From positions 24,080 through 56,079 of the forward strand of contig NZ_LIHP01000012.1 of NCBI RefSeq assembly GCF_001314605.1: a stretch of 32,000 bases of DNA, given 5' to 3'. A program made the position numbers and the translations under genes. A model generated the notes under the pieces. The model was not told where the DNA came from and did not search any database. It worked only from the letters and a program-made list of their open reading frames with translations. Shown piece by piece: positions 598-32,000 of this stretch (its first letter is position 1; each line of letters opens with the position of its first letter). The DNA comes from Marinobacter sp. HL-58 (GTDB lineage Bacteria > Pseudomonadota > Gammaproteobacteria > Pseudomonadales > Oleiphilaceae).

Positions 598-611
598 TTG
601 ATGCTTGTCAA
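598..611. promoter_or_regulatory. FNR/ANR-type box 1 (TTGATgcttGTCAA), upstream of phasin-phaC and divergent to tadA
   Basis: 9/10 match to TTGAT-N4-ATCAA. The hexamer CAAAAT (634-639, 4/6 to TATAAT) starts 29.5 bp from the palindrome centre, which is class II (-41.5) geometry. That predicts a TSS near 646, 32 nt before the phasin ATG at 678. Confidence 0.5.
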
Positions 612-677
612 CATTACGTCATGAATCCTGCTGCAAAATAGAAGTTCAAATTCCCTGTATGCAAAGGAGATGTATCA

Positions 678-1019
678 ATGAGCAATGACCTGTTTGAAAA
701 AGCCACCCGCCTTAACGAAACCCTCTTCGAGCAGTTCAACAAGGCAGCGGAAATGCAGATGAACGCGTTTCGCCGCTACGCCGACGTTACCATGGAACAG
801 GCGAAAAAGGTGTCCGAAGTGCGGGACCTGGAAGGACTGAAGGCCGTTACCGGGGACCAGGCAGAAACCCTGAAATCCCTTAGCGAACAGTTCACCGCCG
901 ACTGGAAAGCCTGGCAGGATTACTTCAACGAAACCCGCGAGGAGGTCCAGAAGGTTTTCGAGAAGGCCCCCGAGGCAAAGGAAGAAACGGCAAAACCCGG
1001 CCCGAAGGCCACCAAGTAG
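678..1019 (+). CDS. phasin-like PHA granule-associated protein
   Basis: 113-aa ORF with SD AAGGAG (664-669) 8 nt before the ATG. It is Ala/Glu/Lys/Gln-rich with no Cys and looks all-helical. Its stop lies only 9 nt before the phaC ATG. The assignment rests on composition and position next to phaC, not on a diagnostic motif. Confidence 0.7.
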   Translation: MSNDLFEKATRLNETLFEQFNKAAEMQMNAFRRYADVTMEQAKKVSEVRDLEGLKAVTGDQAETLKSLSEQFTADWKAWQDYFNETREEVQKVFEKAPEAKEETAKPGPKATK

Positions 1020-1028
1020 GGATTGTTT

Positions 1029-2831
1029 ATGTTGGGTATGGATACGCTGGGGAAAACCGTCAGCCAGCTGGTGAATCAGTTTGAAACCAATGTCCGGCAG
1101 GGCCAGCAGAACCTGGAGAAATGGCTTGGGGAGACCGGCGTCATGGATGACGCCAAACTCTCCACCCTGTCCGAGATGTCCGACGCTTATCGGGCCATGG
1201 CAGAGGATCTCCTGCTGCACCCGATCAGGTTTGCGAGCGCCGAACTGGGCCTTGCCCGCAAACACCTGGCGCTGGGTGGCTACACCCTTGCCCAGTTAAC
1301 CGGCAGGGACAGTAACCCGCCCGCGCAACCAGACCCGGATGACCGGCGTTTCCAGGCGGAAGACTGGCACAGGTACCTGCCTTTCGATGTACTCCACCAG
1401 GCTTACCTGATCAACTCCCGGGCATTTCTGGACTGGGTCGGCAACATGGAAGGCCTGCCACCGGCCGGCCGTGACCAGATGCTGTTCTACGCCCGGCAAC
1501 TGACCAGTGCGCTGTCACCCTCGAACTTTCCCGCCTCCAATCCGGAAGTTCTCAGGATTACCTGGGAGCGCAAGGGCATGAACCTGATTGACGGTACCCG
1601 GCAGTTGCTTGAAGACGTGCGGCAGAATCCGTCGCTGTTCAATGTCGGCATGACGGACCGCTCGGCATTTGAAATCGGCCGCAACCTGGCCACCACGCCG
1701 GGAAAAGTGGTTTACCAGAATGAACTGATGCAGCTGATCCAGTACTCACCGTCCACGGAAACGGTCAGTCAGCGCCCTCTTCTGATTGTCCCGCCCTGGA
1801 TCAACAAGTTCTACATACTGGATCTGACGGCACAGAAATCGTTTATCCAGTGGCTCGTTGACCAGGGCCAGACGGTCTTTATCATTTCCTGGCGCAACCC
1901 CGGGCCTGAGCTCCGGGACAAGGGTTGGGAAGATTACATGCAGCTGGGCCCGCTGGCTGCCATGGACGCAATCACCGAAGCCACCGGTGAAGAGCGGATG
2001 AATGTGATCGGCTACTGCATCGGCGGCACCCTGCTGGGGTCTACCCTGGCCTGGCTGAAGAAGAAACAGCGCAATCCGGTGGTCAGCGCTACCTACCTGA
2101 CCACCCTGCTGGATTTTTCGGACCCCGGCGGCATCGGCGTGTTCATCAACGATCACTCCATTCAGGGCATTGAGCGGATGCTGGAACGCAAGGGCTACCT
2201 TGATGGGCGCGCCATGGCGTTTACCTTCAACCTCCTGCGGGAAAACGAGCTGTTCTGGTCCTTCTGGACCAATAATTACCTGAAGGGTGAAAAGCCGGCC
2301 GCCTTCGACATACTTTACTGGAACACCGATGGCACCAACCTGCCAGCGAAGATGCACAGCTTCTATCTTCGTGAAATGTACCTGAACAACCGTCTGGTTC
2401 AGCCGGACTCCCTGACCCTGGCCGGGGAATCCATCAACCTGTCAGAGATTGAGGTGCCTTCGTTCTTCCTGTCGGCCCGGCAGGATCACATCGCCAAATG
2501 GAAAACCACCTATAAAGGTGCGCTGGCCCACGGAGGTGATGTGCGGTTTGTATTGTCCGGCTCCGGCCACATTGCGGGGGTAATCAACCCGCCCTACAAG
2601 GAAAAGTACGGCTTCTGGACCAACGACAGGATGCCGCCGGACGCTGAAGACTGGCTGGCGGATTCCGAGCAGCACCCGGGATCCTGGTGGCCACACTGGC
2701 TGGAATGGATTGCCCCGTACTCCGGTGAGCAGGTGCCGGCCCGCATACCGGGTGAGGGCAAATTGCCAGTAATCGAGGATGCTCCAGGGAGCTACGTGAA
2801 GGTCAAAGCGGCTGAAGCCGCCGCCAGCTAG
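1029..2831 (+). CDS. phaC: class I poly(R)-hydroxyalkanoate synthase PhaC
   Basis: About 600 aa, the single-subunit size. It has the lipase-box G-Y-C-I-G-G (NVIGYCIGGTLLG), PLLIVPPWINKFYILDL, and the C-terminal SGSGHIAGVINPP region. The track ORF starts at TTG 1023; ATG 1029 (chosen) and ATG 1038 are in-frame alternatives. Confidence 0.95.
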   Translation: MLGMDTLGKTVSQLVNQFETNVRQGQQNLEKWLGETGVMDDAKLSTLSEMSDAYRAMAEDLLLHPIRFASAELGLARKHLALGGYTLAQLTGRDSNPPAQPDPDDRRFQAEDWHRYLPFDVLHQAYLINSRAFLDWVGNMEGLPPAGRDQMLFYARQLTSALSPSNFPASNPEVLRITWERKGMNLIDGTRQLLEDVRQNPSLFNVGMTDRSAFEIGRNLATTPGKVVYQNELMQLIQYSPSTETVSQRPLLIVPPWINKFYILDLTAQKSFIQWLVDQGQTVFIISWRNPGPELRDKGWEDYMQLGPLAAMDAITEATGEERMNVIGYCIGGTLLGSTLAWLKKKQRNPVVSATYLTTLLDFSDPGGIGVFINDHSIQGIERMLERKGYLDGRAMAFTFNLLRENELFWSFWTNNYLKGEKPAAFDILYWNTDGTNLPAKMHSFYLREMYLNNRLVQPDSLTLAGESINLSEIEVPSFFLSARQDHIAKWKTTYKGALAHGGDVRFVLSGSGHIAGVINPPYKEKYGFWTNDRMPPDAEDWLADSEQHPGSWWPHWLEWIAPYSGEQVPARIPGEGKLPVIEDAPGSYVKVKAAEAAAS

Positions 2832-2902
2832 AATTCCCAGGGATGGGGCATACCAGGCTTCACAACAGATATCCGGATAGAAATTTGCTTTTGGCTGCGT
2901 TA

Positions 2903-2916
2903 TTGACTGTCGTCAA
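2903..2916. promoter_or_regulatory. FNR/ANR-type box 2 (TTGACtgtcGTCAA), upstream of hsp20
   Basis: 8/10 to TTGAT-N4-ATCAA with both TTGA/TCAA cores intact. It lies in the 266-bp non-coding gap after phaC. GATAGG (2936-2941) is a weak -10 candidate, 26.5 bp from the centre. This implies a ~150-nt hsp20 leader. Confidence 0.4.
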
Positions 2917-3053
2917 CAGTTATCCAGAGGCGTTCGATAGGCTTGAACAGGAAGGTCGCACTGACCAGACATGCGAAGCTGACGGTCGAGAGTGGCGAGA
3001 AAGTAGTGGATACAATGGATCTCGACCTGACCGCAGACAGCCAACATGGTAAA

Positions 3054-3091
3054 GGCGTCCTTTCAAATCAAACATAGCCACTATTGGAGCC
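3054..3091 (+). promoter_or_regulatory. possible SD-sequestering hairpin in the hsp20 leader (RNA-thermometer-like)
   Basis: GGCgUCC (3054-3060) can pair with GGAGCC (3086-3091, containing the SD GGAG), leaving G3057 bulged. The loop is 25 nt. The stem is short and the loop long, so this is speculative. Confidence 0.2.
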
Positions 3092-3097
3092 AAAAGC

Positions 3098-3547
3098 ATG
3101 AGAAACCTGATCAAGAGAGACAAGCCGTCCCTGCCCACCTTTCAACAGGAAATGGAGCGCTTTTTTAACGAACGCCTGTGGCCATTCTCTCTGGACGACA
3201 GGGAGCACGCCGGTGTCGCCCAATGGGCACCGGCTGTGGATGTCAAAGAAGACAAAGACCGTTTCGTGGTCACTGCAGACGTTCCCGGTGTCGATCCCAA
3301 GGACATCGAAGTGAATCTGGAAAACGGGGTACTCACAATACGCGGGGAGCGCGAAGAGGAAAAAGAAGATGACGACAAGGGCTGGCACCGGGTAGAACGA
3401 TTCACCGGCAGCTTTTTCCGCCGCTTTGACCTGCCCGGCGCAGCTGATGCCTCGCAGGTGACAGCAAAATCCGACAAGGGCGTTCTGAAAATTGAAATCC
3501 CCCGGTCAGAGAAGTCGCAAAATTCTCGCATCGAGGTCAAAGGCTGA
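3098..3547 (+). CDS. small heat-shock protein, Hsp20/alpha-crystallin family
   Basis: 149 aa with an alpha-crystallin domain: APAVDVKEDKDRFVVTADVPGVDPKDIEVNLENGVLTIRGER ... GSFFRRFDLPG ... GVLKIEIP. SD GGAG lies 8 nt upstream. Confidence 0.93.
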   Translation: MRNLIKRDKPSLPTFQQEMERFFNERLWPFSLDDREHAGVAQWAPAVDVKEDKDRFVVTADVPGVDPKDIEVNLENGVLTIRGEREEEKEDDDKGWHRVERFTGSFFRRFDLPGAADASQVTAKSDKGVLKIEIPRSEKSQNSRIEVKG

Positions 3548-3591
3548 AGAGAACGCCCTTCAGGATCAAGCATATTGCGGAGGTAGACCTC

Positions 3592-3789
3592 ATGATAAGG
3601 TCAACGCTGTCACAGGAGTCTTATAAAAATCCCTCGAATCTGATCGTTGTTCAGTGCCCGGATTGCCATGAATTATCGATGATATCGAGACTGAACCTGG
3701 CCGCTGGCGAGCAGGTTCGCTGCAACCATTGCAAAACATTTTCCCCTATCGAGGAGTACAAAGGGTACCCACCCGCCAAGTCCGGATAA
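3592..3789 (+). CDS. small zinc-ribbon protein (CxxC-N18-CxxC, MJ0042-type-like)
   Basis: 65-aa ORF with SD GGAGG upstream, starting 44 nt after hsp20. VQCPDCHELSMISRLNLAAGEQVRCNHCKTF resembles the MJ0042-type zinc-finger pattern (CPxC...vrCxxCxxxF). It is short, so coding status is not certain. Confidence 0.5.
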   Translation: MIRSTLSQESYKNPSNLIVVQCPDCHELSMISRLNLAAGEQVRCNHCKTFSPIEEYKGYPPAKSG

Positions 3790-3811
3790 GTACCGCCCGG
3801 GTCCGGGCTGG

Positions 3812-3833
3812 CCCCTCAGGCTTACCGGAGGGG
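3812..3833. terminator. candidate bidirectional hairpin between the convergent zinc-ribbon ORF and glgB
   Basis: CCCCTC (3812-3817) pairs with GAGGGG (3828-3833) around a 10-nt loop. On the + strand it is followed by TTAT. There is no real U-tract on either strand. Confidence 0.3.
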
Positions 3834-6020
3834 TTATGCCCGGCACTCCCACTCGAGTATCACTCCACCCAGAGGCGGCACATCCAGGGCCAGTGAGCAG
3901 GGCTGGTTCATCCAGGGTTGTTGTTCCGCTTCCAGGCCCTGGCCGTTACCCATATCGCTGCCGCCATAGAATCGCGAATCGGAATTGAACAGCTCATGGT
4001 AGTGGCCCGGCCCCGGCACGCCGACCCGATAGCCATAGCGGGGCACCGGCGTAAAGTTGAGCACGATGATCAGAGAACGGTCGTCATCAATGCGGCGGTA
4101 ACAGAGCAGTGACTGAGCCGCATCATGGCAATCAATCCACTCAAATCCCTGGCGCTGGAAATCATACCTGTGCAGTTCAGTACGCTGCGTGTAGAGCCGG
4201 TTCAGATCCGCCACCACCGCCAGCAAACCGGCATGCTCCGGATAGTCCAGAAGCCCCCAGTCCAGGGCGGCGTTGTGATCCCACTCCTGATTGACACCGA
4301 ACTCATCCCCCATGAAAAGCAGCTTTTTGCCGGGAAACGTGTACATGCAGGTGTAGAGCAGTCGCAGATTGGCAAACTGCTGCCAGCGGTCACCCGGCAT
4401 CTTGCTCAGCAAAGAGCGTTTGCCATGCACTACCTCATCGTGAGACAGAGGCAGGATGAAGTTCTCGTCAAAGGCGTAATACAGCGCAAAGGTAATGGCG
4501 TCGTGGTGATAATGACGATGGACAGGCTCCTTCTCGATATAGGAAAGGGTGTCATTCATCCAGCCCATATTCCACTTCATGCTGAAGCCCAGCCCCCCGA
4601 CCCAGACCGGCCGGGTTACCTGTGGCCAGGCGGTGGACTCCTCGGCGATGGTGACAGTGCCGGGACATTCCCGGTGGGTGACGGTATTGAGCTCCCGGAG
4701 AAACTGTATTGCCTCCAGGTTTTCATTACTGCCGTAGCGGTTAGGCAGCCAGTCGTCCTCCCGGCCGTAATCCAGGTAAATCATGGAGGCCACCGCATCC
4801 ACCCGCAATCCGTCGAAGTGAAACTGCTCCAGCCAATAGAGAGCACTGGATATCAGAAAGGAGCGCACTTCATTGCGCCCATAGTTGAATACCAGAGTGC
4901 CCCATTCCTTGTGCTCGCCTAACCGGGCGTCGTGATGCTCGTACAAGGCTGTGCCGTCGAAAAGCGCCAGCGCCTGGTCGTCCTTCGGGAAGTGGCCCGG
5001 CACCCAGTCCACATAGACCCCGATGCCTTGCCGGTGCAGGCAATCCACCAGGTAGCGCAAGTCGTCCTCGTTACCGTGACGGCGAGTGGCGGCAAAATAC
5101 CCGGTGCTCTGGTAACCCCAGGACCCCTCGAATGGGAATTCGGTGACCGGCATTAACTGCACATGGGTGAAACCTGTGCGTTTCAGATGAATCAGCAGGC
5201 GCTCCACCAGCTCGCGATAACCCAGCAGTTCACCGGTATCGCCCCGCTGCCAGGAGCCCAGATGGAGTTCGTAGATGGCAATGGGTGCCTGCTGCCAGTC
5301 CGGCCTCCGGTCCGGCCAGCCGTCATCGCCCCATTGATAGCTGGAGGGCCCGACCACGATGGAGGCTGGATGCGGTGGCGCTTCGAATTCCCGGGCAAAG
5401 GGATCTGCGCGCAGAAAAACCGTGCCGCTCTCACCGTGACGGATTTCGTACTTGTACAGGGCCCCGGGGCCGACACCGGGAATAAACAGCTCCCACACAC
5501 CACTGCCCCCGAGGCAACTCATGGGATGGCGACGGCCATCCCATGCATTGAAGTCACCGACAACGCTGACCCGCTCGGCATTGGGCGCCCACACCGCAAA
5601 ACGGGTACCCTCAACCCCCTCCCTGGCGTAGGGATGAGCGCCCAGCATCTGCCACGCCCGGTGATGGCGGCCCTCGCTGAAGCTCTGCAGGGCGGCTTCA
5701 TCGATATCCGGTGCAAAGGCATAGGCGTCCTGGTGGCTGTGCTCTCCTCCGTGTTCATCCCGGTAGCGTACTGAATAGGGGTGAGGCAAGTCGTTCGCAT
5801 CGCCGGCCCACGTAAACAGACCGCAGCCCTCATTTTTCATGGCGGCACCTGTTTCCTCTAACCAGGCAGTTACCGCCTGGGGCAGCCACACCCTTACAAC
5901 TGCCGTGCCATCCCGGAAATGGGGCCCCAGAATTTTGTGAGGTGCATGGTGGCGTGCGTCTCGCAAGTAGAGCAGGTCATCGCTGGTCGGTTCAACTTGC
6001 TTTATTGAGGGAAAATTCAT
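3834..6020 (-). CDS. glgB: 1,4-alpha-glucan branching enzyme GlgB (GH13)
   Basis: 728 aa, the length of E. coli GlgB. GH13 regions are present: VDWVPGHF, GLRVDAVASM, IAEESTAW, LSHDEVVHGK. Confidence 0.96.
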   Translation of the reverse strand: MNFPSIKQVEPTSDDLLYLRDARHHAPHKILGPHFRDGTAVVRVWLPQAVTAWLEETGAAMKNEGCGLFTWAGDANDLPHPYSVRYRDEHGGEHSHQDAYAFAPDIDEAALQSFSEGRHHRAWQMLGAHPYAREGVEGTRFAVWAPNAERVSVVGDFNAWDGRRHPMSCLGGSGVWELFIPGVGPGALYKYEIRHGESGTVFLRADPFAREFEAPPHPASIVVGPSSYQWGDDGWPDRRPDWQQAPIAIYELHLGSWQRGDTGELLGYRELVERLLIHLKRTGFTHVQLMPVTEFPFEGSWGYQSTGYFAATRRHGNEDDLRYLVDCLHRQGIGVYVDWVPGHFPKDDQALALFDGTALYEHHDARLGEHKEWGTLVFNYGRNEVRSFLISSALYWLEQFHFDGLRVDAVASMIYLDYGREDDWLPNRYGSNENLEAIQFLRELNTVTHRECPGTVTIAEESTAWPQVTRPVWVGGLGFSMKWNMGWMNDTLSYIEKEPVHRHYHHDAITFALYYAFDENFILPLSHDEVVHGKRSLLSKMPGDRWQQFANLRLLYTCMYTFPGKKLLFMGDEFGVNQEWDHNAALDWGLLDYPEHAGLLAVVADLNRLYTQRTELHRYDFQRQGFEWIDCHDAAQSLLCYRRIDDDRSLIIVLNFTPVPRYGYRVGVPGPGHYHELFNSDSRFYGGSDMGNGQGLEAEQQPWMNQPCSLALDVPPLGGVILEWECRA

Positions 6021-6053
6021 GGCAACAGATCGCTCTTGTGAATGGCTGAAATA

Positions 6054-8717: not shown

Positions 8718-8793
8718 GCATGCTCCCATCGCGTAGTCCAGACCGGGCTCTTCAGTCGATCTGTGTCTTTGTAAACGACTATCTTGAATACTC

Positions 8794-11205: not shown

Positions 11206-11229
11206 GGCGTTGACTCCTTCGTGGACTGT

Positions 11230-15281: not shown

Positions 15282-15325
15282 TTTATAACCTTATTACTCA
15301 GACCTTTCTCAGCATTGCTGTCACC

Positions 15326-16240
15326 TCACATCGTATCGGCACAAGCAATTCGGCGTTCTGCGCGATCAAGACCCTGTGCGTATCGGGCAAGATCTGCCCA
15401 GGGATCATCCGTCTGCCCCAGGCGCCTCAATATATTGCCCATGTGGTATTTACGGGGCGTCAGATTCCCGCAACCCACCTCATCCCATTTCAGCGGTGTC
15501 GCAATCGGAGCACCCTGGAGTGCGCGAACGGCATAGGGTGCAACCGCGGTCTGGCCATAACCGTTGCGCAAATCATCGAGAAAAACCCGTGTACCACGCA
15601 TGTTCCTGCGCTGTTCAATAGTCATTAAATCGGCATGCTGTTCTGCAAGTTTGCGGCAAACGCGATGACTGAAGGCGCGTACCTGCTGGAAATCGGCTTT
15701 TCGGTCCAATGGAACCAGAACGTGAAGGCCACGGGAACCGGTGGTCTGCACGAATGAAACCAGGCCCAGACGGTCCAGCAGCGTCTTGAGGTGAGTGGCA
15801 GTGGTGCGGACCTTGCCAAAGTCATCGTCAGAAGGGTCAAGGTCAAAAATCATCCGGTCGGGGTGGTTGTGTCGGTCCGTCCGGGAAAGGGCAAGGTGGG
15901 GAGTGATGCAGGCCTGATCGGCCAGATAGACGAGAGTGGCGGTATTGTTGGCCACCACGGAGGTCACCTCACCGCCCTCTTTGGGCAGAGTGGCGCGATC
16001 GATCCAATCGGGAAAGTAGTCAGCAATATGCTTCTGGAAAAAGCCACGCTCGCCGATGCCATCGGGATAGCGGTGCATGGTCAAAGCGCGCTTGCGGTAA
16101 TGGGGAAGTGCCACGTCCGCGATCTTCAGGTAGTACTTCGCCAGTTCGAGCTTGCTGATGTTCGGAGACTTGAACATCAGCTTTTCAGGATTGCCGATCG
16201 CAATATCAAGTCCACCCGCTTTCAATACAGCATCCGTCAT
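15326..16240 (-). CDS. stand-alone LigD-type polymerase/primase (AEP) domain protein
   Basis: Motifs seen: RMIFDLDPS, QTTGSRGLHVLVPL, NGYGQTAVAPYAVR. It is colinear with the Pol domain of bacterial LigD. The track ORF extends to 16414, but ATG 16240 has GGGAGG 7 nt upstream and begins MTDAVLKAGGLDI.... Confidence 0.9.
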   Translation of the reverse strand: MTDAVLKAGGLDIAIGNPEKLMFKSPNISKLELAKYYLKIADVALPHYRKRALTMHRYPDGIGERGFFQKHIADYFPDWIDRATLPKEGGEVTSVVANNTATLVYLADQACITPHLALSRTDRHNHPDRMIFDLDPSDDDFGKVRTTATHLKTLLDRLGLVSFVQTTGSRGLHVLVPLDRKADFQQVRAFSHRVCRKLAEQHADLMTIEQRRNMRGTRVFLDDLRNGYGQTAVAPYAVRALQGAPIATPLKWDEVGCGNLTPRKYHMGNILRRLGQTDDPWADLARYAQGLDRAERRIACADTM

Positions 16241-16271
16241 TTTCAAGCCTCCCGGCAACTCGCGCCTCACG

Positions 16272-16871
16272 CTATGAGGCGGCGTCCTCATCTGCATTCG
16301 TCGCGATCTGCCTGATCGTGCGCCCGGTGAGCACCGACTTCGGCTCGGTGGAAACCGGGTTGCGACGAGCATCGGCGTATTGGTCATCCATCTTGACCAA
16401 CAGCCAGCGTGCATCAGCGCCGGAACCGGTGCGTTGCAATGCGTAGCCGCCCTTTAGTTTTTTCCCGAACAGTTGGATCAAGACATGACCCGCCGCTAAT
16501 GCCTCGTCGATTGGCTGTATCTCGCCGTCCTTTTCGGTGATGTTGCGGTAACAACCGCAGTCCCAGACGAGAACAGTCCCTGCACCGTATTTACCTTCGG
16601 GAATCACGCCTTCGAAATCAGCGTATTCCAGCGCATGGTCCTCGGTAGGAATCATGAGGCGCTTTTTACCAGGATCAGTGGAGGGGCCTTTGGGAACAGC
16701 CCAACTCTTGAGCACGTTGCCCACCTCAATGCGAAAATCGTAATGCACAGTGGAAGCATCGTGCTTTTGAACCACGAACCGTGGGCGCTTTGCCGGACCG
16801 CTGCTACGCGACCTGCGGAGCTCGCCGGAGTGGTCGAACGTGTTTTTTGCGGTCGGTACTTTCATTGACAT
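16272..16871 (-). CDS. stand-alone LigD-type 3'-phosphoesterase (PE) domain protein
   Basis: RFVVQKHDASTVHYDFRIE..LKSWAVPKGPS...EDHALEYADFEGVIPEGKYGAGTVLVWD is nearly colinear with the P. aeruginosa LigD PE domain. Starts at ATG 16871 or 16865 (the track uses TTG 16883). The stop is 31 nt before the Pol gene. Confidence 0.9.
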   Translation of the reverse strand: MSMKVPTAKNTFDHSGELRRSRSSGPAKRPRFVVQKHDASTVHYDFRIEVGNVLKSWAVPKGPSTDPGKKRLMIPTEDHALEYADFEGVIPEGKYGAGTVLVWDCGCYRNITEKDGEIQPIDEALAAGHVLIQLFGKKLKGGYALQRTGSGADARWLLVKMDDQYADARRNPVSTEPKSVLTGRTIRQIATNADEDAAS

Positions 16872-16936
16872 AAATCCCAACAACTCACGCTTTTGGCCAG
16901 ATTATGTCAATACACTACTCTCGGCGAATCCGCCTT

Positions 16937-16980
16937 CAGTTGATCCCGGTCAAGTCCGTCCCCGGGCATTTATTCGATAA
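16937..16980 (+). repeat. conserved promoter module, copy A (contains box 3)
   Basis: cagttgatcccggtcaagtccgtccccgggcatttattcgataa matches 36/44 positions of 20966..21009 without gaps. Confidence 0.8.
16940..16953. promoter_or_regulatory. FNR/ANR-type box 3 (TTGATcccgGTCAA) in the divergent PE/ligase intergenic region
   Basis: 9/10 to consensus. GATAAA (16976-16981, 4/6 to TATAAT) starts 29.5 bp from the centre on the + strand. TAGTGT (complement of 16912-16917, 3/6) sits at the mirror distance on the - strand. One site could therefore serve both directions. Confidence 0.5.
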
Positions 16981-17010
16981 ACAAGGTCCATGGTGGGGAG
17001 ATTGAGCAGG

Positions 17011-18837
17011 ATGGACTTCAGGAGCAAGCCGGACACGAACTTCCGGAATATTGATGATCTGACCGAGAAGGAAGCCGCGGAGGAGGCGCGTGCCCTGCGT
17101 GATGGAATCAATTATCACGACCACCTGTACTACGTGAAAAACGCACCAAAGATATCGGATGCCGTCTATGACCAATTGTTTCAGCGCCTTGAGGATCTGG
17201 AGGCCGCTTTTCCCGACCTGAAAACCGAAGATTCGCCGACAGTCCGCATCGGCGCCGAGCCGGTGAGCAAACTGACCAAGATTCGGCATGCGGCACCGCT
17301 GCTTAGCCTGCAGGCGACCCTGGAGTGCAAGGCCGTCGAGTCCTTTCTGAGAACCGCACGCGACAAGTCGGGAACAACATCCGTCCGCTACTGCCTGGAG
17401 CCGAAGTTTGACGGGTTGTCGGTCGAGGTCGTCTACCACGATGGAAGGTTCAAGCATGGCAGCACGCGCGGCGATGGCATGGTGGGCGAGGACATTTCCC
17501 ACAATCTGAAGACCATACGTTCTCTGCCACTTTGCCTGCAGGAGGCTGACGGGGCATCCGGCAGGGTAGCGGTCCGCGCCGAGGTTTACATGTCCAGGGA
17601 AGGATTCGTTGCACTGAACCGACAACGAGTGGAGCGGGGTCAGGATACCTTTGCCAACCCCCGCAATGCTGCGGCCGGAATGATGCGGCAGCTGGAATCG
17701 CGTAACGTCGCCGGCAAGCCCTTCGATATTGTTTTCTACGAGATACTGGCAGCCGACAGCCAGCTCCCCCCCACCCACTGCGAAGTCCTGGATCAGTTGT
17801 CTCGCTGGGGGCTGAGGGTCAGCCCCCTGAACGACTCTGGCAGCTCTCTGGAGGACATTCGGGCCTTTCATCAGGATCTGGCCAAGCGCCGGGACGTCCT
17901 CGATTACGAGATCGACGGGATTGTCGTCAAGGTCGACGATCATGGCCTGCGCGACGAGCTGGGTAACCGGCACCGCAACCCACGCTGGGCTATCGCGTGG
18001 AAGTTTGAGCCGTGCGAGGAAGTCACTACAGTCGCGGACATTGTCGTCCAGGTCGGGCGCACGGGCATACTGACACCTGTCGCGCTGCTGCAGCCGGTGG
18101 ACGTCGGTGGCGTCACGGTCAGCCGTGCAACCCTGCATAACGCCAACGAGGTACGGCGCAAGGATATCCGGGTCGGTGATTGCGTCCGTGTGATACGCGC
18201 CGGTGACGTCATCCCGGAAATCGAAAAGCGCATCGGGCAAAAGGGCAGCAAGCGCGCGGCACCCTTCTCCATGCCCCGTCGCTGCCCAGCATGCGGTTCG
18301 AAGGTCCAGCGCAAAGGCGCCTATTACCTGTGCAACGCAGGCCTTTCCTGCCCCGCACAGTTAGTCACCCGTCTGCAGCACTTCGCTTCCCGCGATGCAA
18401 TGGATATCAAACATCTTGGTGAACACACCGCGGCCCAGTTGGTAGAGCGGGGCCTGGTGCACGATCTTGCCGATCTTTATGGCCTCACCGTTGAGGACCT
18501 TGAGTCTCTGGACGGGTTCGCGGAGCGGTCGGCGAAACAGCTTCATGATGCCATCCAGGGGGCTAAAAAGCCGCCACTGGACCGATTTCTCTATGCCCTC
18601 GGCATTCGTCACGTGGGGCAACGTGTGGCACGTCAGTTGGCCAATGAATACGGTGCCCTGGAAAGCCTGGCCGCAGCCGGACAGCAAGACATCGGGAATA
18701 TTCCGGATATCGGCAAGGAGACGGCAGAGTCGGTGGCGGACTTCTTCGCCGACCACCAGAATCGTGATGTCCTCAACCGTCTTTACAAGGCGGGAATGGA
18801 TGTGCAGCCCATGCCCGGTAAGCACAGACAACCCTAG
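17011..18837 (+). CDS. ligA: NAD+-dependent DNA ligase (LigA family) lacking the C-terminal BRCT domain
   Basis: Domain Ia: INYHDHLYYVKNAPKISDAVYDQLF. Adenylation motif: EPKFDGLSVEV (KxDG). Also TRGDGMVGEDIS, IDGIVVKVD and NPRWAIAWKF. The four-Cys zinc finger is CPACGSKV..YLCNAGLSCPAQ. HhH repeats follow. The protein ends at ...YKAGMDVQPMPGKHRQP, where BRCT would begin. ATG 16990 is the upstream in-frame alternative. I prefer 17011 because the predicted TSS is about 16988 and GGGGAG (16994-16999) precedes it. Confidence 0.92.
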   Translation: MDFRSKPDTNFRNIDDLTEKEAAEEARALRDGINYHDHLYYVKNAPKISDAVYDQLFQRLEDLEAAFPDLKTEDSPTVRIGAEPVSKLTKIRHAAPLLSLQATLECKAVESFLRTARDKSGTTSVRYCLEPKFDGLSVEVVYHDGRFKHGSTRGDGMVGEDISHNLKTIRSLPLCLQEADGASGRVAVRAEVYMSREGFVALNRQRVERGQDTFANPRNAAAGMMRQLESRNVAGKPFDIVFYEILAADSQLPPTHCEVLDQLSRWGLRVSPLNDSGSSLEDIRAFHQDLAKRRDVLDYEIDGIVVKVDDHGLRDELGNRHRNPRWAIAWKFEPCEEVTTVADIVVQVGRTGILTPVALLQPVDVGGVTVSRATLHNANEVRRKDIRVGDCVRVIRAGDVIPEIEKRIGQKGSKRAAPFSMPRRCPACGSKVQRKGAYYLCNAGLSCPAQLVTRLQHFASRDAMDIKHLGEHTAAQLVERGLVHDLADLYGLTVEDLESLDGFAERSAKQLHDAIQGAKKPPLDRFLYALGIRHVGQRVARQLANEYGALESLAAAGQQDIGNIPDIGKETAESVADFFADHQNRDVLNRLYKAGMDVQPMPGKHRQP

Positions 18838-18875
18838 AAATTCAGCGCATGTTGAGGACAACATTCAGCGGCAAG

Positions 18876-18889
18876 TTGATGCTCATCAA
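18876..18889. promoter_or_regulatory. FNR/ANR-type box 4 (TTGATgctcATCAA, perfect consensus), upstream of pcm-ere
   Basis: 10/10 match to TTGAT-N4-ATCAA, within a 16-bp palindrome GTTGATGctCATCAAC. It lies 70 nt before the SD-backed GTG start at 18960. The best -10 candidate, GATAGT (18918-18923), is 6 bp further than class II spacing. Confidence 0.55.
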
Positions 18890-18959
18890 CTTCACCGTGC
18901 GGATTACTGCCACGCTTGATAGTGCATCGCTCAAAACAAGTGTATCGAGGAGGCCCATT

Positions 18960-20954
18960 GTGGATACCGACCTACGCTCCAGCAAAAAACAAGCATTCCT
19001 GGATCTGTTGAAAAAACGTGGTATCCAGGACAAACGGGTGCTGGAAGCCATGGCGACTGTTCCACGGGAGGCATTTGTCGGCCTTGATCTCGCTGAGCTG
19101 GCCTATGATGACTCCCCCTTGCCCATAGAGAATGGCCAAACAATCTCCCAGCCATACATTGTGGCTCTGATGACCGAGGCAATGCAGCTCAGACCGTCAG
19201 ACACTGTGCTGGAGATAGGCACCGGCTCCGGCTACGCAGCGGCTGTTCTTTCCCGGATCGTGAAGCAGGTTTATACCATTGAGCGCCACCGGGGACTGGC
19301 AGAGCAGGCCCGCGAGCGCTTGTCATCATTGGGCTATGACAATGTCTCGGTCAGGTGCGGTGACGGCACTCTTGGCTGGCCGGAGCATGCCCCTTTTGAC
19401 GCCATTGTTGTGACAGCCGGAGGGCCCTCGGTGCCCCTGTCACTTACCAGGCAACTGGTTATTGGTGGCCGCCTGATCATTCCTGTGGGCCAGTCTCTGC
19501 ATGATCAGAAGCTGCAACGTATTACCCGTGTCAGCGAAGATGACATCAGAACCGAGGAACTCGGTGGGGTCAGGTTTGTTCCATTGATCGGTGAAGAGGG
19601 TTGGCGAGATGTGGAAGGCAGGTTGAACAGACCGCCCCCGGGGAAGGTCGAGCCCGCTGCTGCGCTTTCCGAGCAGATCCGGAGCCAGGCGATTCACATT
19701 CCCTCCATAGAGAGTGTCGATCTCGGCGGCCTGCTGTCACGAATCGGAGATTCCCGCCTGGTGCTGCTGGGTGAAGCCAGCCATGGCACCGCGGAGTTCT
19801 ACGAGATGCGTGCGCGCATCACCAGGGAGCTGATTGAGAAAAAAGGCTTCCACTTTGTGGCCGTGGAAGCGGACTGGCCCGATGCCGCCCAGATCGATCA
19901 TTTTGTCCGTGAAACCCGAAAGGAGCCAACACAAGAGCTCACCTTCAGCCGCTTCCCCACGTGGATGTGGGCAAACCGACAGGTTGCGAATTTTGTGCAA
20001 TGGCTACGCCACCATAACCGGCAAGCAGATACCGGGGATCAGGCGGTGGGATTCTTCGGCCTGGATCTTTACAGCCTCTATTCCTCCATCAATGCCATCA
20101 TCGGTTACCTGGAACAGGTGGACACAGAGGCAGCCGCGGTTGCCCGCGAGCGGTATGGCTGCCTGACACCCTGGGAAAAGGATCCGGCAACCTATGGCAG
20201 AGTAGCGCTCACCAGGCAACAGCTGAGTTGCGAACAGGATGTCGTGGCAATGCTGAACATGCTGATGCAGAAACGGCTGGAATATTCAGCCCATGATGGT
20301 CGCAGGTTCCTCGATGCAGTATCCAATGCCCGTCTGGTAAAGAACGCCGAGCATTTTTATCGTTCCATGTACGATGGTTCGGTCAAATCCTGGAACCTGC
20401 GCGACCAGCACATGTTCGATACGCTGGAAAGCCTGCTTGATTTTCATGGCCCTGACAGCAAGGCGATTGTCTGGGCGCATAATTCCCACCTGGGGAACGC
20501 AGAGGCGACAGAAATGGGGTCTCGTGGCGAGATCAACGTGGGTTCTCTATGCCGCCAGCGTTTCGGGGAGACCGCCTATCTCATCGGCTTCGGCACGCAT
20601 CAGGGTACAGTAGCGGCGGCATCTGACTGGGGCGCACCCATGGAAGTCAAAAACATTGTGCCGTCGACGCCTGACAGTTATGAGCGTCTTTGCCATGACG
20701 CTGGCCTGAACGCATTTTTCCTGCCTCTGCGTCATGGCGAAAAGAACCTTGTGAAGGAACTGCAGCGGCCAAGACTGGAGCGGGCCATTGGCGTGATCTA
20801 TCGCCCGGAAACGGAAATAGCCAGTCACTACTTCATCGCATCCCTGTCCAGGCAGTTTGACGAATATATCTGGTTTGACAAAACCCGGGCGGTGGATGCG
20901 CTGGGACCGGAAGCGGGCAAGGGTATGCCGGAGACCTTCCCGTTCGGTCTCTGA
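18960..20954 (+). CDS. pcm: fusion protein: protein-L-isoaspartate O-methyltransferase (Pcm) N-terminal domain + erythromycin-esterase-like (Ere/ChaN-type) C-terminal domain
   Basis: The Pcm part (to about 19605) has VPREAFV, GQTISQPYIVALM, LEIGTGSGYAAAVL, FDAIVVTAG and VRFVPLIGEEGW, colinear with E. coli Pcm. The Ere-like part (from about 19700) has RLVLLGEASHGTAEFY and VAVEADWPDA. The start is assigned to GTG 18960, with AGGAGG (18948-18953) 6 nt upstream. The track's ATG 18849 would add 37 aa with no homology and would cover the FNR box. Confidence 0.85.
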   Translation: MDTDLRSSKKQAFLDLLKKRGIQDKRVLEAMATVPREAFVGLDLAELAYDDSPLPIENGQTISQPYIVALMTEAMQLRPSDTVLEIGTGSGYAAAVLSRIVKQVYTIERHRGLAEQARERLSSLGYDNVSVRCGDGTLGWPEHAPFDAIVVTAGGPSVPLSLTRQLVIGGRLIIPVGQSLHDQKLQRITRVSEDDIRTEELGGVRFVPLIGEEGWRDVEGRLNRPPPGKVEPAAALSEQIRSQAIHIPSIESVDLGGLLSRIGDSRLVLLGEASHGTAEFYEMRARITRELIEKKGFHFVAVEADWPDAAQIDHFVRETRKEPTQELTFSRFPTWMWANRQVANFVQWLRHHNRQADTGDQAVGFFGLDLYSLYSSINAIIGYLEQVDTEAAAVARERYGCLTPWEKDPATYGRVALTRQQLSCEQDVVAMLNMLMQKRLEYSAHDGRRFLDAVSNARLVKNAEHFYRSMYDGSVKSWNLRDQHMFDTLESLLDFHGPDSKAIVWAHNSHLGNAEATEMGSRGEINVGSLCRQRFGETAYLIGFGTHQGTVAAASDWGAPMEVKNIVPSTPDSYERLCHDAGLNAFFLPLRHGEKNLVKELQRPRLERAIGVIYRPETEIASHYFIASLSRQFDEYIWFDKTRAVDALGPEAGKGMPETFPFGL

Positions 20955-20965
20955 TCAAGGCTACC

Positions 20966-21009
20966 CAGTTGACCATGGTCAAGTCGGGACCCGGGCATTT
21001 ATTTGATGA
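20966..21009 (+). repeat. conserved promoter module, copy B (contains box 5)
   Basis: cagttgaccatggtcaagtcgggacccgggcatttatttgatga matches 36/44 positions of 16937..16980. Confidence 0.8.
20969..20982. promoter_or_regulatory. FNR/ANR-type box 5 (TTGACcatgGTCAA), upstream of the GH57-malQ-gap-...-treZ string
   Basis: 8/10 to consensus with both cores intact. GATGAT (21005-21010, 4/6 to TATAAT) starts 29.5 bp from the centre. The predicted TSS near 21017 is 20 nt before ATG 21037. Confidence 0.5.
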
Positions 21010-21036
21010 TGGAAATGCTCAATCAGGAATCTGGCC

Positions 21037-26278: not shown

Positions 26279-26345
26279 GTCTCTGGCATCGCCATTCGGG
26301 ATGCCTGATCTTATAAGAGACCATTGTCGATAAGGAGCAGCTGAT

Positions 26346-31711: not shown

Positions 31712-32000
31712 ATGATCCGGGAAGCGACCACGACCATGGCACCCTTTATCATCAAGGACTGTGCCCTTATTGCCCTGGCCACGGGGAAGAGGGTGCAGAA
31801 TCTCAAGGAACTGCGGGATCACCTGGAAGTGGTTCCTCATAGCAGCCTCTATTACCATTTCTGGGGCGGCCTTCTGCACCCGGGTTTTGAGGAACGGGAA
31901 TATGGCAACGATCTCGGGGAGTGGGCCAAACATGGCCTCCACGATGCCAGCCTGGCGGAGAGACTCGCCGTCATCGATCCCTCCAGTTTCGACGACACGG
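31712..32000 (+). CDS. small conserved hypothetical protein (5' part; runs off the right edge)
   Basis: Not in the track because it has no stop in the window. My translation from ATG 31712 (GGGAGAG 4 nt upstream) is MIREATTTMAPFIIKDCALIALATGKRVQNLKELRDHLEVVPHSSLYYHFWGGLLHPGFEEREYGNDLGEWAKHGLHDASLAERLAVIDPSSFDDT, open for 96 codons. It resembles small proteins I recall next to alpha-glucan gene clusters (possibly the DUF5752 family), but I cannot verify that here. Confidence 0.55.
   Translation, partial: MIREATTTMAPFIIKDCALIALATGKRVQNLKELRDHLEVVPHSSLYYHFWGGLLHPGFEEREYGNDLGEWAKHGLHDASLAERLAVIDPSSFDDT

What the first reader, a model, noticed from the sequence alone, without database searches (positions are those of the whole stretch)
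598..20982. An FNR/ANR-type palindrome precedes every transcription unit, so the window looks like one oxygen-limitation 'storage + repair' regulon
Seen in sequence: TTGA-N6-TCAA occurs five times. The sites are 598-611 TTGATgcttGTCAA (phasin-phaC, divergent to tadA) and 2903-2916 TTGACtgtcGTCAA (hsp20 + zinc-ribbon ORF). The third, 16940-16953 TTGATcccgGTCAA, lies between the PE-Pol-HAD-GH65-ppsA-ATPase-glgB string and the NAD+ ligase. The last two are 18876-18889 TTGATgctcATCAA (pcm-ere) and 20969-20982 TTGACcatgGTCAA (GH57-malQ-gap-orf-pfkB-treY-treZ). A by-eye scan of every 'ttga' in the window found no further TTGA-N6-TCAA. All five fall in the ~1.2 kb (~4%) I call non-coding. Assuming about 58% GC, my rough expectation is ~0.2 chance hits per 32 kb. 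At three sites (boxes 1, 3, 5) a hexamer with 4/6 match to TATAAT begins exactly 29.5 bp from the palindrome centre. Established knowledge: TTGAT-N4-ATCAA is the FNR/ANR/FixK consensus, and class II FNR promoters carry it centred near -41.5. FNR-family regulators are reported to control PHB synthesis (CydR in Azotobacter vinelandii, Anr in Pseudomonas extremaustralis). Inference: PHA, glycogen/trehalose turnover, an alpha-crystallin Hsp20, isoaspartyl protein repair and DNA end-repair genes are co-induced at low O2. This is functionally analogous to the mycobacterial DosR dormancy regulon, which includes hspX and otsB1. I am not aware of such a clustered regulon being described.
Basis: partly seen in the sequence, partly recalled or inferred. 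Interest (0 to 1): 0.85.

Follow-up and report, generated by a model that had tools for sequence, protein, structure and literature searches.

The report
FNR-box low-oxygen survival gene island
In a salt-lake Marinobacter, a roughly 45-kb cluster of storage-polymer, trehalose, chaperone and protein/DNA-repair genes carries the same FNR-type activator site in front of nearly every operon; this is real, but it is a new example of the 'low-oxygen-activated' gene islands already described in Burkholderia and Bradyrhizobium, not a new kind of regulon.

Summary
TTGA-N6-TCAA occurs exactly five times in the window at the stated positions, against 0.39 expected, and twice more just beyond its right end. 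All seven sites are intergenic, and only the N6 spacing is enriched. Five of eight gene-facing promoters have a -10-like hexamer 21-22 nt after the box, which is class II geometry (box centred at -41.5). The source is Marinobacter sp. HL-58.

A CRP/FNR-family regulator is encoded 1.8 kb beyond the window, inside the same island. It has the FNR-type E--SR recognition helix. It lacks all four [4Fe-4S] cysteines, so it is not a canonical O2-sensing FNR/Anr.

Seventeen of 79 unrelated proteobacterial genomes also carry the box just upstream of their PCMT-Ere gene. Their other box-proximal genes are Usp, Hsp20, CBS, P-type ATPase, nitroreductase and PfkB.

This matches two published systems: the Burkholderia cenocepacia lxa locus and the FixK2-dependent clusters of Bradyrhizobium. 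The lxa locus has the same motif at 17 intergenic points, an embedded Anr-like regulator, PhaC, alpha-crystallin, a cation ATPase and PfkB, and its DosR parallel is already in print.

Verdict: a real regulon and a new member of a known kind. The new content is the alpha-glucan/trehalose and LigD-type repair modules. Low-oxygen induction remains inferred.

The parts
598..611 (.). Box b1, TTGATGCTTGTCAA, 67 nt upstream of the phasin start
   Evidence: intergenic
634..639 (+). -10-like hexamer CAAAAT, 22 nt after b1 (box centre would be at -41.5)
678..1019 (+). Phasin (Phasin_2)
1029..2831 (+). PHA synthase PhaC (PhaC_N + alpha/beta hydrolase; about 600 aa)
2903..2916 (.). Box b2, TTGACTGTCGTCAA, 181 nt upstream of hsp20; atypical geometry (weak GATAGG 19 nt after the box)
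3098..3547 (+). Hsp20/alpha-crystallin small heat-shock protein
3592..3789 (+). 65-aa ORF downstream of hsp20; no family match
3834..6020 (-). Glycogen branching enzyme GlgB; last gene of the leftward operon
6054..8717 (-). Type IIA (Ca2+-type) P-type cation ATPase
8784..8797 (.). One-mismatch box TTGAATACTCTCAT in the PpsA|ATPase gap; possible weak internal site
8794..11205 (-). PEP synthase PpsA
11230..13650 (-). GH65 glycoside hydrolase/phosphorylase
13647..15281 (-). Fusion of a beta-phosphoglucomutase-family HAD domain and trehalose-6-phosphate phosphatase
15326..16414 (-). Stand-alone LigD primase-polymerase domain protein
16272..16883 (-). Stand-alone LigD 3'-phosphoesterase domain protein; first gene of the leftward operon
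16912..16917 (-). TAGTGT (3/6, TA...T), 22 nt after b3 on the minus strand; candidate -10 for the leftward operon
16940..16953 (.). Box b3, TTGATCCCGGTCAA, in the 127-bp divergent region; could serve both directions
16961..16974 (+). CCCGGGCATTTATT, a promoter-core 14-mer shared exactly with the b5 promoter
16976..16981 (+). -10-like GATAAA, 22 nt after b3
17011..18837 (+). NAD+-dependent DNA ligase, LigA-like but without the C-terminal BRCT domain (608 aa)
18876..18889 (.). Box b4, TTGATGCTCATCAA, 70 nt upstream of PCMT-Ere; the nearest -10-like hexamer (GATAGT) is 28 nt after the box
18960..20954 (+). Fusion of protein-L-isoaspartate O-methyltransferase and an erythromycin-esterase-like domain (664 aa)
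20969..20982 (.). Box b5, TTGACCATGGTCAA, 54 nt upstream of GH57
20990..21003 (+). Second exact copy of CCCGGGCATTTATT
21005..21010 (+). -10-like GATGAT, 22 nt after b5
21037..22728 (+). GH57 glycoside hydrolase
22725..24209 (+). 4-alpha-glucanotransferase MalQ
24239..25246 (+). Glyceraldehyde-3-phosphate dehydrogenase
25262..26278 (+). 338-aa ORF; no family match
26346..27296 (+). PfkB-family sugar kinase; the N-terminus extends upstream of the listed ATG and probably starts at an ATC codon
27289..29966 (+). Malto-oligosyltrehalose synthase TreY, split by a frameshift near 28365-28385
29963..31681 (+). Malto-oligosyltrehalose trehalohydrolase TreZ
31712..32000 (+). DUF5752 gene, cut by the window end. 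Beyond the window (window-equivalent coordinates) come TreT, the CRP/FNR regulator (33827-34552, +), a CBS-pair gene (34656-35150, -), boxes b6 (35259) and b7 (35299), and an operon of ATP-grasp, CocE/NonD hydrolase, DedA/VTT, a 751-aa ORF and a GT4 glycosyltransferase

Best explanation
The palindromes are binding sites for a dimeric activator of the FNR/FixK branch of the CRP family. At most promoters the site is centred near -41.5, which is class II geometry: the bound dimer contacts RNA polymerase directly and substitutes for a -35 element.

The sites unite a roughly 45-kb chromosomal island of Marinobacter sp. HL-58 into one regulon. Its content is PHA synthesis, Hsp20, glycogen and trehalose metabolism, PpsA, a Ca-type P-ATPase, PCMT-Ere protein repair, LigD-type DNA-end repair with an NAD+ ligase, and a CBS protein. 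[quoted passage not shown] Its likely role is persistence when respiration is oxygen-limited, for example at night in a phototrophic mat.

The most likely direct activator is the regulator encoded in the island. It derives from FNR and keeps the TTGA-reading E--SR helix, but it has lost the [4Fe-4S] ligands. It therefore cannot sense O2 the way FNR does. It must be controlled upstream, as FixK is by FixLJ, or by another cue. A canonical Anr, if HL-58 has one, would recognise the same boxes and may share control.

Shown: the sites, their non-random placement and geometry, their conservation in other genomes, and the regulator's sequence features.
Inferred: who binds the sites, the transcription start sites, and the inducing signal.
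For: - Site statistics.
- Geometry: four -10-like hexamers exactly 22 nt after the box and one at 21 nt, among 8 gene-facing promoters, against a 1.7% background.
- Regulator: cNMP-binding plus HTH_Crp domains. The recognition helix AETLSR aligns with VETISR of FNR. The nearest solved structure is A. fischeri FNR, E = 5e-23.
- Loss of the cluster: more distant homologs keep C-x2-C-x5-C plus the central Cys, while this clade has lost that segment and has Ser at the fourth ligand position.
- Eight of 9 island units carry a box. The only unit without one is the regulator gene.
- Comparative data: 75 boxes against about 8.6 expected in 80 loci anchored on PCMT-Ere. Seventeen of 79 distinct loci from alpha-, beta- and gammaproteobacteria have a box within about 320 nt upstream of the anchor. 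Fifteen boxes fall in the -500..-1 bin, against 1-4 in every other bin.
- The closest PCMT-Ere homolog (85% identity, a Halomonas MAG) keeps a box in an unrelated gene context.
- Box-proximal genes elsewhere are Usp, Hsp20, CBS, P-type ATPase, nitroreductase, FtsH, a ribosome-hibernation factor and PfkB.
- Published experiments: FixK2 directly activates hspC2, ppsA and phaC2 through TTGA-N6-TCAA boxes, and the PCMT gene bll4651 is microoxia-induced and FixK2-dependent. The lxa locus has the motif at 17 intergenic points, an embedded Anr-related regulator (BCAM0287), a PHA synthase induced 224-fold, alpha-crystallin, a cation ATPase and a phosphofructokinase.
Against: - There is no expression, TSS or binding data for HL-58. 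The one physiological paper I checked has nothing relevant.
- The island regulator scores far below the curated cut-offs for Fnr (96 vs 228 bits) and FixK (79 vs 300 bits). It has only two close relatives. The one relative on a usable contig has no boxes nearby. Its DNA specificity therefore rests on the E--SR helix alone.
- Boxes b2 and b4 do not fit -41.5 geometry.
- In the other 80 genomes the same boxes occur without a local CRP/FNR gene (2 of 80 loci have one). Other Marinobacter genomes have the same motif upstream of a GGDEF/EAL gene followed by ackA-pta. A global Anr-type factor could therefore be sufficient.
- No oxygen sensor (FixL-type or other) was seen in the 51 kb examined.
- The island has no Usp genes, which are the hallmark of lxa, Anr and DosR regulons.
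Confidence: 0.7

Rival explanations
1. One reading: a canonical [4Fe-4S] Anr/FNR encoded elsewhere in the HL-58 genome binds the boxes directly when O2 falls. The island-encoded paralog is then accessory, or it reads other sites.
For: - The boxes match the Anr/FNR consensus.
- A canonical FNR locus used as a positive control shows the same TTGAC...GTCAA variant upstream of fnr and ompW.
- Seventeen other genomes have the box at PCMT-Ere with no local CRP/FNR gene.
- Two other Marinobacter genomes carry TTGATCTG[G/A]GTCAA upstream of a GGDEF/EAL gene followed by ackA-pta, a classic Anr-type target.
Against: - I could not test for an Anr gene in HL-58, because only 51 kb of the genome was reachable.
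- The island carries its own FNR-derived regulator with the right recognition helix, right beside a double box.
- The same arrangement exists in the lxa locus, where the embedded regulator is itself a candidate.
Confidence: 0.35
2. The island is a dormancy or anhydrobiosis module switched on by a cue other than oxygen, such as stationary phase, osmotic or desiccation stress, or energy charge. The cluster-less regulator would sense that cue, and the FNR-type box would be only an inherited DNA-reading specificity.
For: - The regulator lacks all Fe-S ligands.
- It has two clade-specific conserved cysteines, C70 and C121, in the sensor domain.
- Its gene has no box of its own, unlike the canonical fnr in the positive control.
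- The content is dominated by trehalose, alpha-glucan, Hsp20, isoaspartyl repair and DNA-end repair, which suits desiccation and long-term stasis.
- The source is a hypersaline mat isolate.
Against: - The same gene families with the same box are induced by low oxygen in Bradyrhizobium and Burkholderia.
- Only three sequences define the clade, so the conserved cysteines are weak evidence.
- No sensor partner was identified.
Confidence: 0.2
3. The palindromes have no regulatory role. They would be chance matches, remnants of a repeat element, or transcription-terminator hairpins.
For: Two promoters (b3 and b5) share an exact extra 14-mer, which could suggest a duplicated element.
Against: - None of 100 shuffles reaches 5 matches.
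- The enrichment is specific to the N6 spacing.
- All sites are intergenic.
- The central 6 nt vary, the arms are only 4-5 nt, and there is no T-run.
- The sites lie upstream of genes, including in a divergent region.
- Sites at equivalent positions are conserved in 17 distant genomes.
Confidence: 0.02

Closest known systems
Low-oxygen-activated (lxa) locus of Burkholderia cenocepacia J2315 (Sass et al. 2013, PMC3721108)
   Same: - A roughly 50-kb chromosomal cluster with an Anr/FNR-like inverted repeat (4 bp - N6 - 4 bp) at many intergenic points.
- An Anr-related CRP-family regulator embedded in the locus.
- Shared content: class I PHA synthase, alpha-crystallin Hsp20, a cation-transporting P-type ATPase and a phosphofructokinase.
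- Overlap with the DosR regulon, which the authors noted explicitly.
   Different: - HL-58 has no Usp, nitroreductase, ackA/pta, alcohol dehydrogenase or class II RNR genes in the 51 kb seen.
- Instead it carries large alpha-glucan/trehalose modules (GlgB, GH57, MalQ, TreY/TreZ, TreT, GH65, T6PP), PpsA, PCMT-Ere and a LigD-PE/Pol + NAD+-ligase module.
- The host is a gammaproteobacterium from a hypersaline mat.
- Induction by low O2 has not been tested here.
- I did not check whether BCAM0287 also lacks the Fe-S cysteines.
FixK2 regulon of Bradyrhizobium diazoefficiens, especially the clusters bll4634-blr4658 and bll6073/blr6074
   Same: - The regulator is a CRP/FNR protein without an Fe-S cluster.
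- The box is TTGA/C-N6-T/GCAA.
- Validated or listed targets include hspC2 (Hsp20), ppsA, phaC2, CBS-domain proteins and a PCMT (bll4651).
- The genes are physically clustered and are induced at 0.5% O2.
- Bradyrhizobium MAGs in my set carry the box upstream of PCMT-Ere (L017 and L028).
   Different: - The HL-58 regulator is not a FixK ortholog (79 vs 300 bits).
- It has Ala where FixK2 has the redox-sensitive Cys183. I placed this position by counting residues back from the E--SR motif, using residue numbers recalled from memory; I did not make an alignment.
- No FixLJ was seen nearby.
- Trehalose/glycogen genes and DNA ligases do not appear in the two FixK2 papers I searched.
E. coli FNR / Pseudomonas Anr class II promoters
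   Same: The TTGAT-N4-ATCAA-type palindrome centred about 41.5 bp upstream of the TSS, and the E--SR recognition helix in the regulator.
   Different: The local regulator has none of the four cluster-ligating cysteines. Start sites are inferred from -10-like hexamers only.
DosR (DevR) dormancy regulon of Mycobacterium tuberculosis
   Same: Functional analogy and shared gene families: hspX/Hsp20, ctpF/Ca-type P-ATPase, pfkB, otsB1 (a trehalose-6-phosphate phosphatase that the cited paper also annotates as a glycosyl hydrolase), hrp1/Rv2626c CBS-pair protein (E = 4e-12 to the island CBS protein), and a storage-compound synthase (tgs1 versus PhaC).
   Different: The regulator is unrelated (a NarL-type response regulator), as are the DNA motif and the phylum. 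This is analogy, not membership.

Membership tests
CRP/FNR superfamily (the island regulator) | N-terminal cNMP-binding-like beta-roll domain plus a C-terminal HTH_Crp domain | tested here: met
   Precomputed Pfam hits PF00027, PF13545 and PF00325. Fifty-two PDB relatives, all CRP/FNR proteins.
FNR/Anr oxygen sensors | Four [4Fe-4S]-ligating cysteines: N-terminal C-x2-C-x5-C plus a central Cys (Cys122 in E. coli numbering) | tested here: not met
   There is no Cys in residues 1-69. The alignment to A. fischeri FNR starts after the N-terminal cluster, and the central Cys aligns with Ser. Homologs P0006, P0011 and P0021 keep the motif, while P0001-P0003 have lost that segment.
FNR/Anr oxygen sensors | Score above the curated family cut-off (NCBIfam NF008365, Fnr) | tested here: not met
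   95.9 bits against a cut-off of 228.
FNR/FixK DNA-specificity group | E--SR motif in the recognition helix, which reads TTGA half-sites | tested here: met
   AETLSR (E203, S206, R207) aligns with VETISR of FNR. E, S and R are invariant in alignment A3.
FixK-type regulators | Ortholog-level similarity to FixK and control by FixLJ | tested here: not met
   79.4 bits against a cut-off of 300 for the FixK equivalog. No two-component system was found in the 51 kb examined.
FNR/FixK-type binding site | TTGA-N6-TCAA palindrome enriched upstream of genes | tested here: met
   with cross-genome conservation. A canonical FNR locus serves as a positive control.
Class II FNR-dependent promoter | Site centred at about -41.5 relative to the transcription start | tested here: inconclusive
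   A -10-like hexamer lies 21-22 nt after the box at 5 of 8 gene-facing promoters, and a 3/6 TAGTGT lies at 22 nt for the leftward b3 promoter. Boxes b2 and b4 do not fit. Start sites cannot be mapped with these tools.
lxa-type low-oxygen-activated locus | A large gene cluster with the Anr-like motif at many intergenic points and an embedded Anr-related regulator | tested here: met
   Seven boxes, 8 of 9 units and an embedded regulator, compared with the description in PMC3721108.
lxa-type low-oxygen-activated locus | Characteristic content: multiple Usp genes, alpha-crystallin, PHA synthase, cation ATPase, phosphofructokinase | tested here: inconclusive
   Hsp20, PhaC, a P-type ATPase and PfkB are present. 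No Usp gene was found in the 51 kb.
lxa-type low-oxygen-activated locus | Strong induction under low oxygen and a survival defect when the locus is deleted | not testable with these tools
   No expression or genetic data for HL-58 were found.
DosR regulon | A NarL-family DosR regulator and the DosR box | not tested
   No response regulator appears among the called genes. I did not search for a DosR box. The resemblance is in gene content only.

The most novel reading that the evidence does not exclude
The island is a self-contained persistence module. Its dedicated regulator derives from FNR, has lost its iron-sulfur cluster, and would have been rewired to a non-oxygen cue. One possible sensor is a clade-specific Cys70/Cys121 pair.

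Under this reading the module newly couples alpha-glucan/trehalose accumulation, isoaspartyl protein repair and a Ku-less DNA-end repair set to an inherited hypoxia-type promoter code. The repair set is a stand-alone LigD phosphoesterase and polymerase working with a BRCT-less NAD+-dependent ligase.
Probability: 0.2. Interest if true: 0.6.

Novelty: new member of a known kind. Interest (0 to 1): 0.38.

Why it matters
- It extends the lxa/FixK2-type 'low-oxygen survival island' from beta- and alphaproteobacteria to a marine/hypersaline gammaproteobacterium.
- It shows that the PCMT-Ere fusion is a recurrent member of FNR-box regulons across Proteobacteria.
- It adds compatible-solute, glycogen and DNA-end-repair modules to the set of functions wired to this promoter code. 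That supports the idea of a widely shared hypoxia/dormancy toolkit placed under different regulators (FNR-type, FixK, DosR).
- It gives a testable case of an FNR-derived regulator that has lost its oxygen-sensing cluster.
- It does not open a new category of regulation.

Tried and rejected
1. An exact look-up of the 602-aa PhaC ORF failed because the called gene uses a later start. I used Hsp20 and TreZ to fetch the flanks instead.
2. Context of the regulator's closest usable homolog (P0003, L007): no boxes and unrelated genes, so it gives no comparative support for the regulator-box pairing.
3. I looked for CRP/FNR genes in the 80 comparative loci and found them in only 2, neither with boxes. 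An embedded regulator is therefore not a general feature of these loci.
4. Synteny of the island in the closest PCMT-Ere relatives (a Halomonas MAG and two Marinobacter genomes): none. Orthologous-promoter footprinting was therefore possible only for PCMT-Ere.
5. Two 217-218-bp 'gaps' without boxes looked like exceptions. They are coding: the PfkB N-terminus and a frameshifted TreY.
6. Rfam found nothing in the window, including in the long hsp20 leader.
7. The consensus promoter/terminator scan around the regulator gene was uninformative, with counts at shuffle level.
8. I tried to find a canonical Anr of HL-58 through P0006. It belongs to another organism, so I used it as a positive control instead.
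9. The TTGAC versus TTGAT half-site preference (9:5 in HL-58) does not discriminate between regulators, because a canonical FNR locus shows TTGAC as well.
10. The HL-58 co-culture physiology paper contains nothing on oxygen, storage compounds or these genes.

Full report
**Observation**

Dinucleotide-preserving shuffles give a mean of 0.39 matches, and none of 100 shuffles reaches five. Reading the sequence around each site confirms that every one lies just upstream of a gene start.

**Genes**

- Rightward from b1 and b2: phasin-PhaC, then Hsp20 plus a 65-aa ORF.
- Leftward from b3: LigD phosphoesterase, LigD polymerase, a beta-PGM/trehalose-6-P phosphatase fusion, GH65, PpsA, a type IIA P-type ATPase and GlgB.
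- Rightward from b3 and b4: a BRCT-less NAD+ ligase, then a PCMT-erythromycin-esterase fusion.
- Rightward from b5: GH57, MalQ, GAPDH, orf338, PfkB, TreY and TreZ.

Two apparent 217-218-bp gaps inside the last string are in fact coding. One is the N-terminus of PfkB and the other is a frameshifted TreY.

**Source and flanks**

The window comes from a 354-kb contig of Marinobacter sp. HL-58, an isolate from a hypersaline phototrophic mat.
- Left: housekeeping genes (ruvC, yebC, aspS, a tadA-like deaminase and others) with no box.
- Right: the island continues with DUF5752 and TreT. Then come a 241-aa CRP/FNR-family regulator, a divergent CBS-pair gene, and two more boxes 40 bp apart. An operon of ATP-grasp, CocE/NonD hydrolase, DedA, a 751-aa ORF and a glycosyltransferase follows.

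In the joined 48.6-kb super-locus all seven boxes fall in the 5.8% of sequence that is intergenic (P about 2e-9). Only the N6 spacing is enriched: 7 hits, against 0-2 for N2-N10. Eight of the nine inferred transcription units carry a box. The exception is the regulator gene.

**Promoter geometry**

- A hexamer with at least 4/6 matches to TATAAT starts exactly 22 nt after the box at b1, b3, b5 and b7. This places it 29.5 bp from the box centre, so the box would be centred at -41.5.
- At b6, facing the CBS gene, the hexamer starts at 21 nt.
- The leftward b3 promoter has TAGTGT at 22 nt.
- Such hexamers have a background frequency of 1.7%.
- Boxes b2 (181 nt from hsp20) and b4 do not fit this geometry.
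- The b3 and b5 promoters also share an exact 14-mer, CCCGGGCATTTATT. A CCCGG element lies in the spacer of 4 of the 8 promoters (post hoc P about 0.002). I cannot explain this element.

**The regulator**

- Its closest solved relative is Aliivibrio fischeri FNR (E = 5e-23). The recognition helix AETLSR aligns with FNR's VETISR, the E--SR motif that reads TTGA.
- The alignment begins after FNR's N-terminal cysteine cluster, and the fourth ligand aligns with Ser.
- In a multiple alignment, more distant homologs retain C-x2-C-x5-C plus the central Cys. This protein and its only two close relatives (63-64% identity) have lost that whole segment.
- It scores far below the curated Fnr and FixK cut-offs.

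It is therefore an FNR-derived protein with no iron-sulfur ligands, and it cannot sense O2 by the FNR mechanism. Two cysteines, C70 and C121, are conserved within the three-member clade only. This is a lead, not evidence.

**Comparative test**

The PCMT-Ere fusion is widespread. I fetched 80 genomic loci anchored on it.
- They hold 75 boxes, against about 8.6 expected from composition. The enrichment is again specific to N6: 72 hits, against 6-25 for other spacings.
- Seventeen of 79 distinct loci have a box within about 320 nt upstream of the anchor gene. They are alphaproteobacteria including Bradyrhizobium, one betaproteobacterium and three gammaproteobacteria. Several loci have double boxes.
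- Fifteen boxes fall in the 500 bp before the gene, against 1-4 in every other 500-bp bin.
- The closest homolog (85% identity, a Halomonas MAG) keeps a box 80 nt upstream in a completely different neighbourhood.
- Two other Marinobacter genomes lack that box. They do have the motif upstream of a GGDEF/EAL gene followed by ackA-pta.
- Other box-proximal ORFs in these genomes encode Usp, Hsp20, CBS, FtsH, a P-type cation ATPase, nitroreductase, cytochrome c, a ribosome-hibernation factor, PfkB and phosphoketolase. My gene calling here was crude.
- Homologs of the island's CBS, P-ATPase, Hsp20, PhaC, PpsA, LigD and NAD-ligase genes recur near the anchor.
- CRP/FNR genes are rare in these loci, 2 of 80. 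The embedded regulator therefore distinguishes HL-58 from these 80 loci.

**Literature**

- In B. diazoefficiens, FixK2 is a CRP/FNR protein without an Fe-S cluster. It binds TTGA/C-N6-T/GCAA and directly activates hspC2 (Hsp20), ppsA and phaC2. Boxed targets also include usp, nitroreductase and CBS genes (PMC9104804).
- The PCMT gene bll4651 is induced 28.7-fold under microoxia and depends on FixK2. It sits in a cluster with hspC2, usp, CBS, nitroreductase, ppsA and glk (PMC6515984).
- The B. cenocepacia lxa locus is a 50-gene, 50.7-kb cluster induced up to 240-fold at low O2 and needed for anoxic survival. A 4-N6-4 Anr/FNR-like motif occurs at 17 of its intergenic points, and an Anr-related CRP regulator (BCAM0287) is embedded in it. 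Its genes include a class I PHA synthase, alpha-crystallin, a cation ATPase, a phosphofructokinase and an FtsH-type protease. The authors already note the overlap with the DosR regulon (PMC3721108 and PMC12071387).
- DosR-related genes include ctpF, pfkB, otsB1, hrp1/Rv2626c and tgs1 (PMC7753917). The island's CBS protein matches Rv2626c over its full length (E = 4e-12).

**Interpretation**

The boxes are real activator sites of the FNR/FixK type, and the island is a Marinobacter counterpart of lxa/FixK2-type low-oxygen clusters. Which protein binds the boxes is open. It could be the embedded cluster-less regulator, a canonical Anr, or both in a cascade. I could reach only 51 kb of the genome and could not test for an Anr (one search was a failed attempt). 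A canonical FNR locus served as a positive control for the scan. It also shows that the TTGAC half-site preference does not discriminate between regulators. Low-oxygen induction is inferred from the experimentally characterised homologous regulons. It fits a mat organism that faces nightly anoxia, which is my inference. A non-oxygen cue is not excluded, because the local regulator has no O2-sensing cluster.

**Novelty**

This is a new member of a known kind. The new elements are:
- the gammaproteobacterial host;
- the alpha-glucan/trehalose and LigD-PE/Pol + NAD+-ligase content, neither of which appears in the FixK2 and lxa papers I searched for those terms;
- the regulator that has lost its Fe-S cluster;
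- the cross-phylum conservation of a box at PCMT-Ere.

Noticed in passing
window 27289-29966: TreY is split into a 386-aa ORF (TreY profile positions 2-292) and a 432-aa ORF (profile positions 398-837). The two reading frames overlap between 28272 and 28449, and the shift lies near 28365-28385. This is a real frameshift/pseudogene or an assembly error; two independent assemblies give the same gene calls.
   Followed up: partly
window 26334-26496: The PfkB reading frame is open from 26334 and encodes the family's N-terminus (INAIVTLCIKPAIDL...GGGGINVA) upstream of the first ATG. A good Shine-Dalgarno sequence (AAGGAG) lies 8 nt before an ATC codon at 26346, which suggests a non-canonical start.
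   Followed up: partly
window 15326-18837: Stand-alone LigD phosphoesterase and polymerase genes sit divergent to an NAD+-dependent, LigA-like ligase. The ligase matches LigA models only to about position 600 of 664-692, so it has no BRCT domain. No Ku and no ATP-dependent ligase were seen in 51 kb. A 56%-identical ligase lies directly downstream of PCMT-Ere in a Roseovarius genome (L061) and on the same contig in a Desulfobacteraceae MAG (L034). This may be an unusual end-repair module.
   Followed up: partly
window 16961-16974 and 20990-21003: The exact 14-mer CCCGGGCATTTATT lies 7 nt after boxes b3 and b5. A CCCGG(G) element also lies in the spacer at b6 and b7, so 4 of 8 promoters have one (post hoc P about 0.002). 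This could be a second factor's site, a promoter duplication or a spacer constraint; it is unexplained.
   Followed up: partly
window 2936-2975: Downstream of b2, CTTGAA (2942-2947), a 17-nt spacer and CCAGACAT resemble a sigma-32 heat-shock promoter. If this promoter is used, b2 would be centred near -70, a class I-type position. Rfam finds no RNA thermometer in the roughly 150-nt hsp20 leader. I judged this by eye only.
   Followed up: no
window 8784-8797: A one-mismatch box (TTGAATACTCTCAT) lies in the 76-bp gap between ppsA and the P-type ATPase gene. It is the only near-match in the super-locus that is intergenic, and it may mark an internal promoter.
   Followed up: no
L001 13865-14590 (window-equivalent 33827-34552): The island regulator and its two relatives share Cys70 (G-C-[LF]-K-E) and Cys121 (I-P-C-P). 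Both are absent from Cys-cluster-bearing FNR homologs. Cys121 lies 4 residues after the position of FNR's fourth cluster ligand. This could be an alternative redox or cofactor site.
   Followed up: no
L008 14658 and L092 16114: Marinobacter vulgaris and another Marinobacter genome carry the conserved box TTGATCTG[G/A]GTCAA about 165 nt upstream of a CHASE5-PAS-GGDEF-EAL gene. In L092 that gene is followed by ackA-pta. This suggests an Anr-type regulon in the genus that links low oxygen to c-di-GMP turnover.
   Followed up: partly
L040, L072, L031 (about 60-135 nt upstream of PCMT-Ere): Several genomes have two boxes 61-68 bp apart in front of PCMT-Ere. HL-58 has a pair 40 bp apart between the CBS and ATP-grasp genes. 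These are tandem or divergent site arrangements that I did not analyse.
   Followed up: no
L090 9908-12000: The HL-58 PCMT-Ere is closer to a Halomonas MAG protein (85% identity) than to those of other Marinobacter genomes (76-77%). The box travels with the gene into a different neighbourhood (SelO, katG). This hints at horizontal transfer of gene and promoter together.
   Followed up: partly
L001 13700-13730 (upstream of the regulator gene): An inverted repeat, GCACTC-N7-GAGTGC, and a second TGCACTCA copy lie in the 197-bp region upstream of the regulator gene, which has no FNR-type box. This may be an operator for whatever controls the regulator.
   Followed up: no
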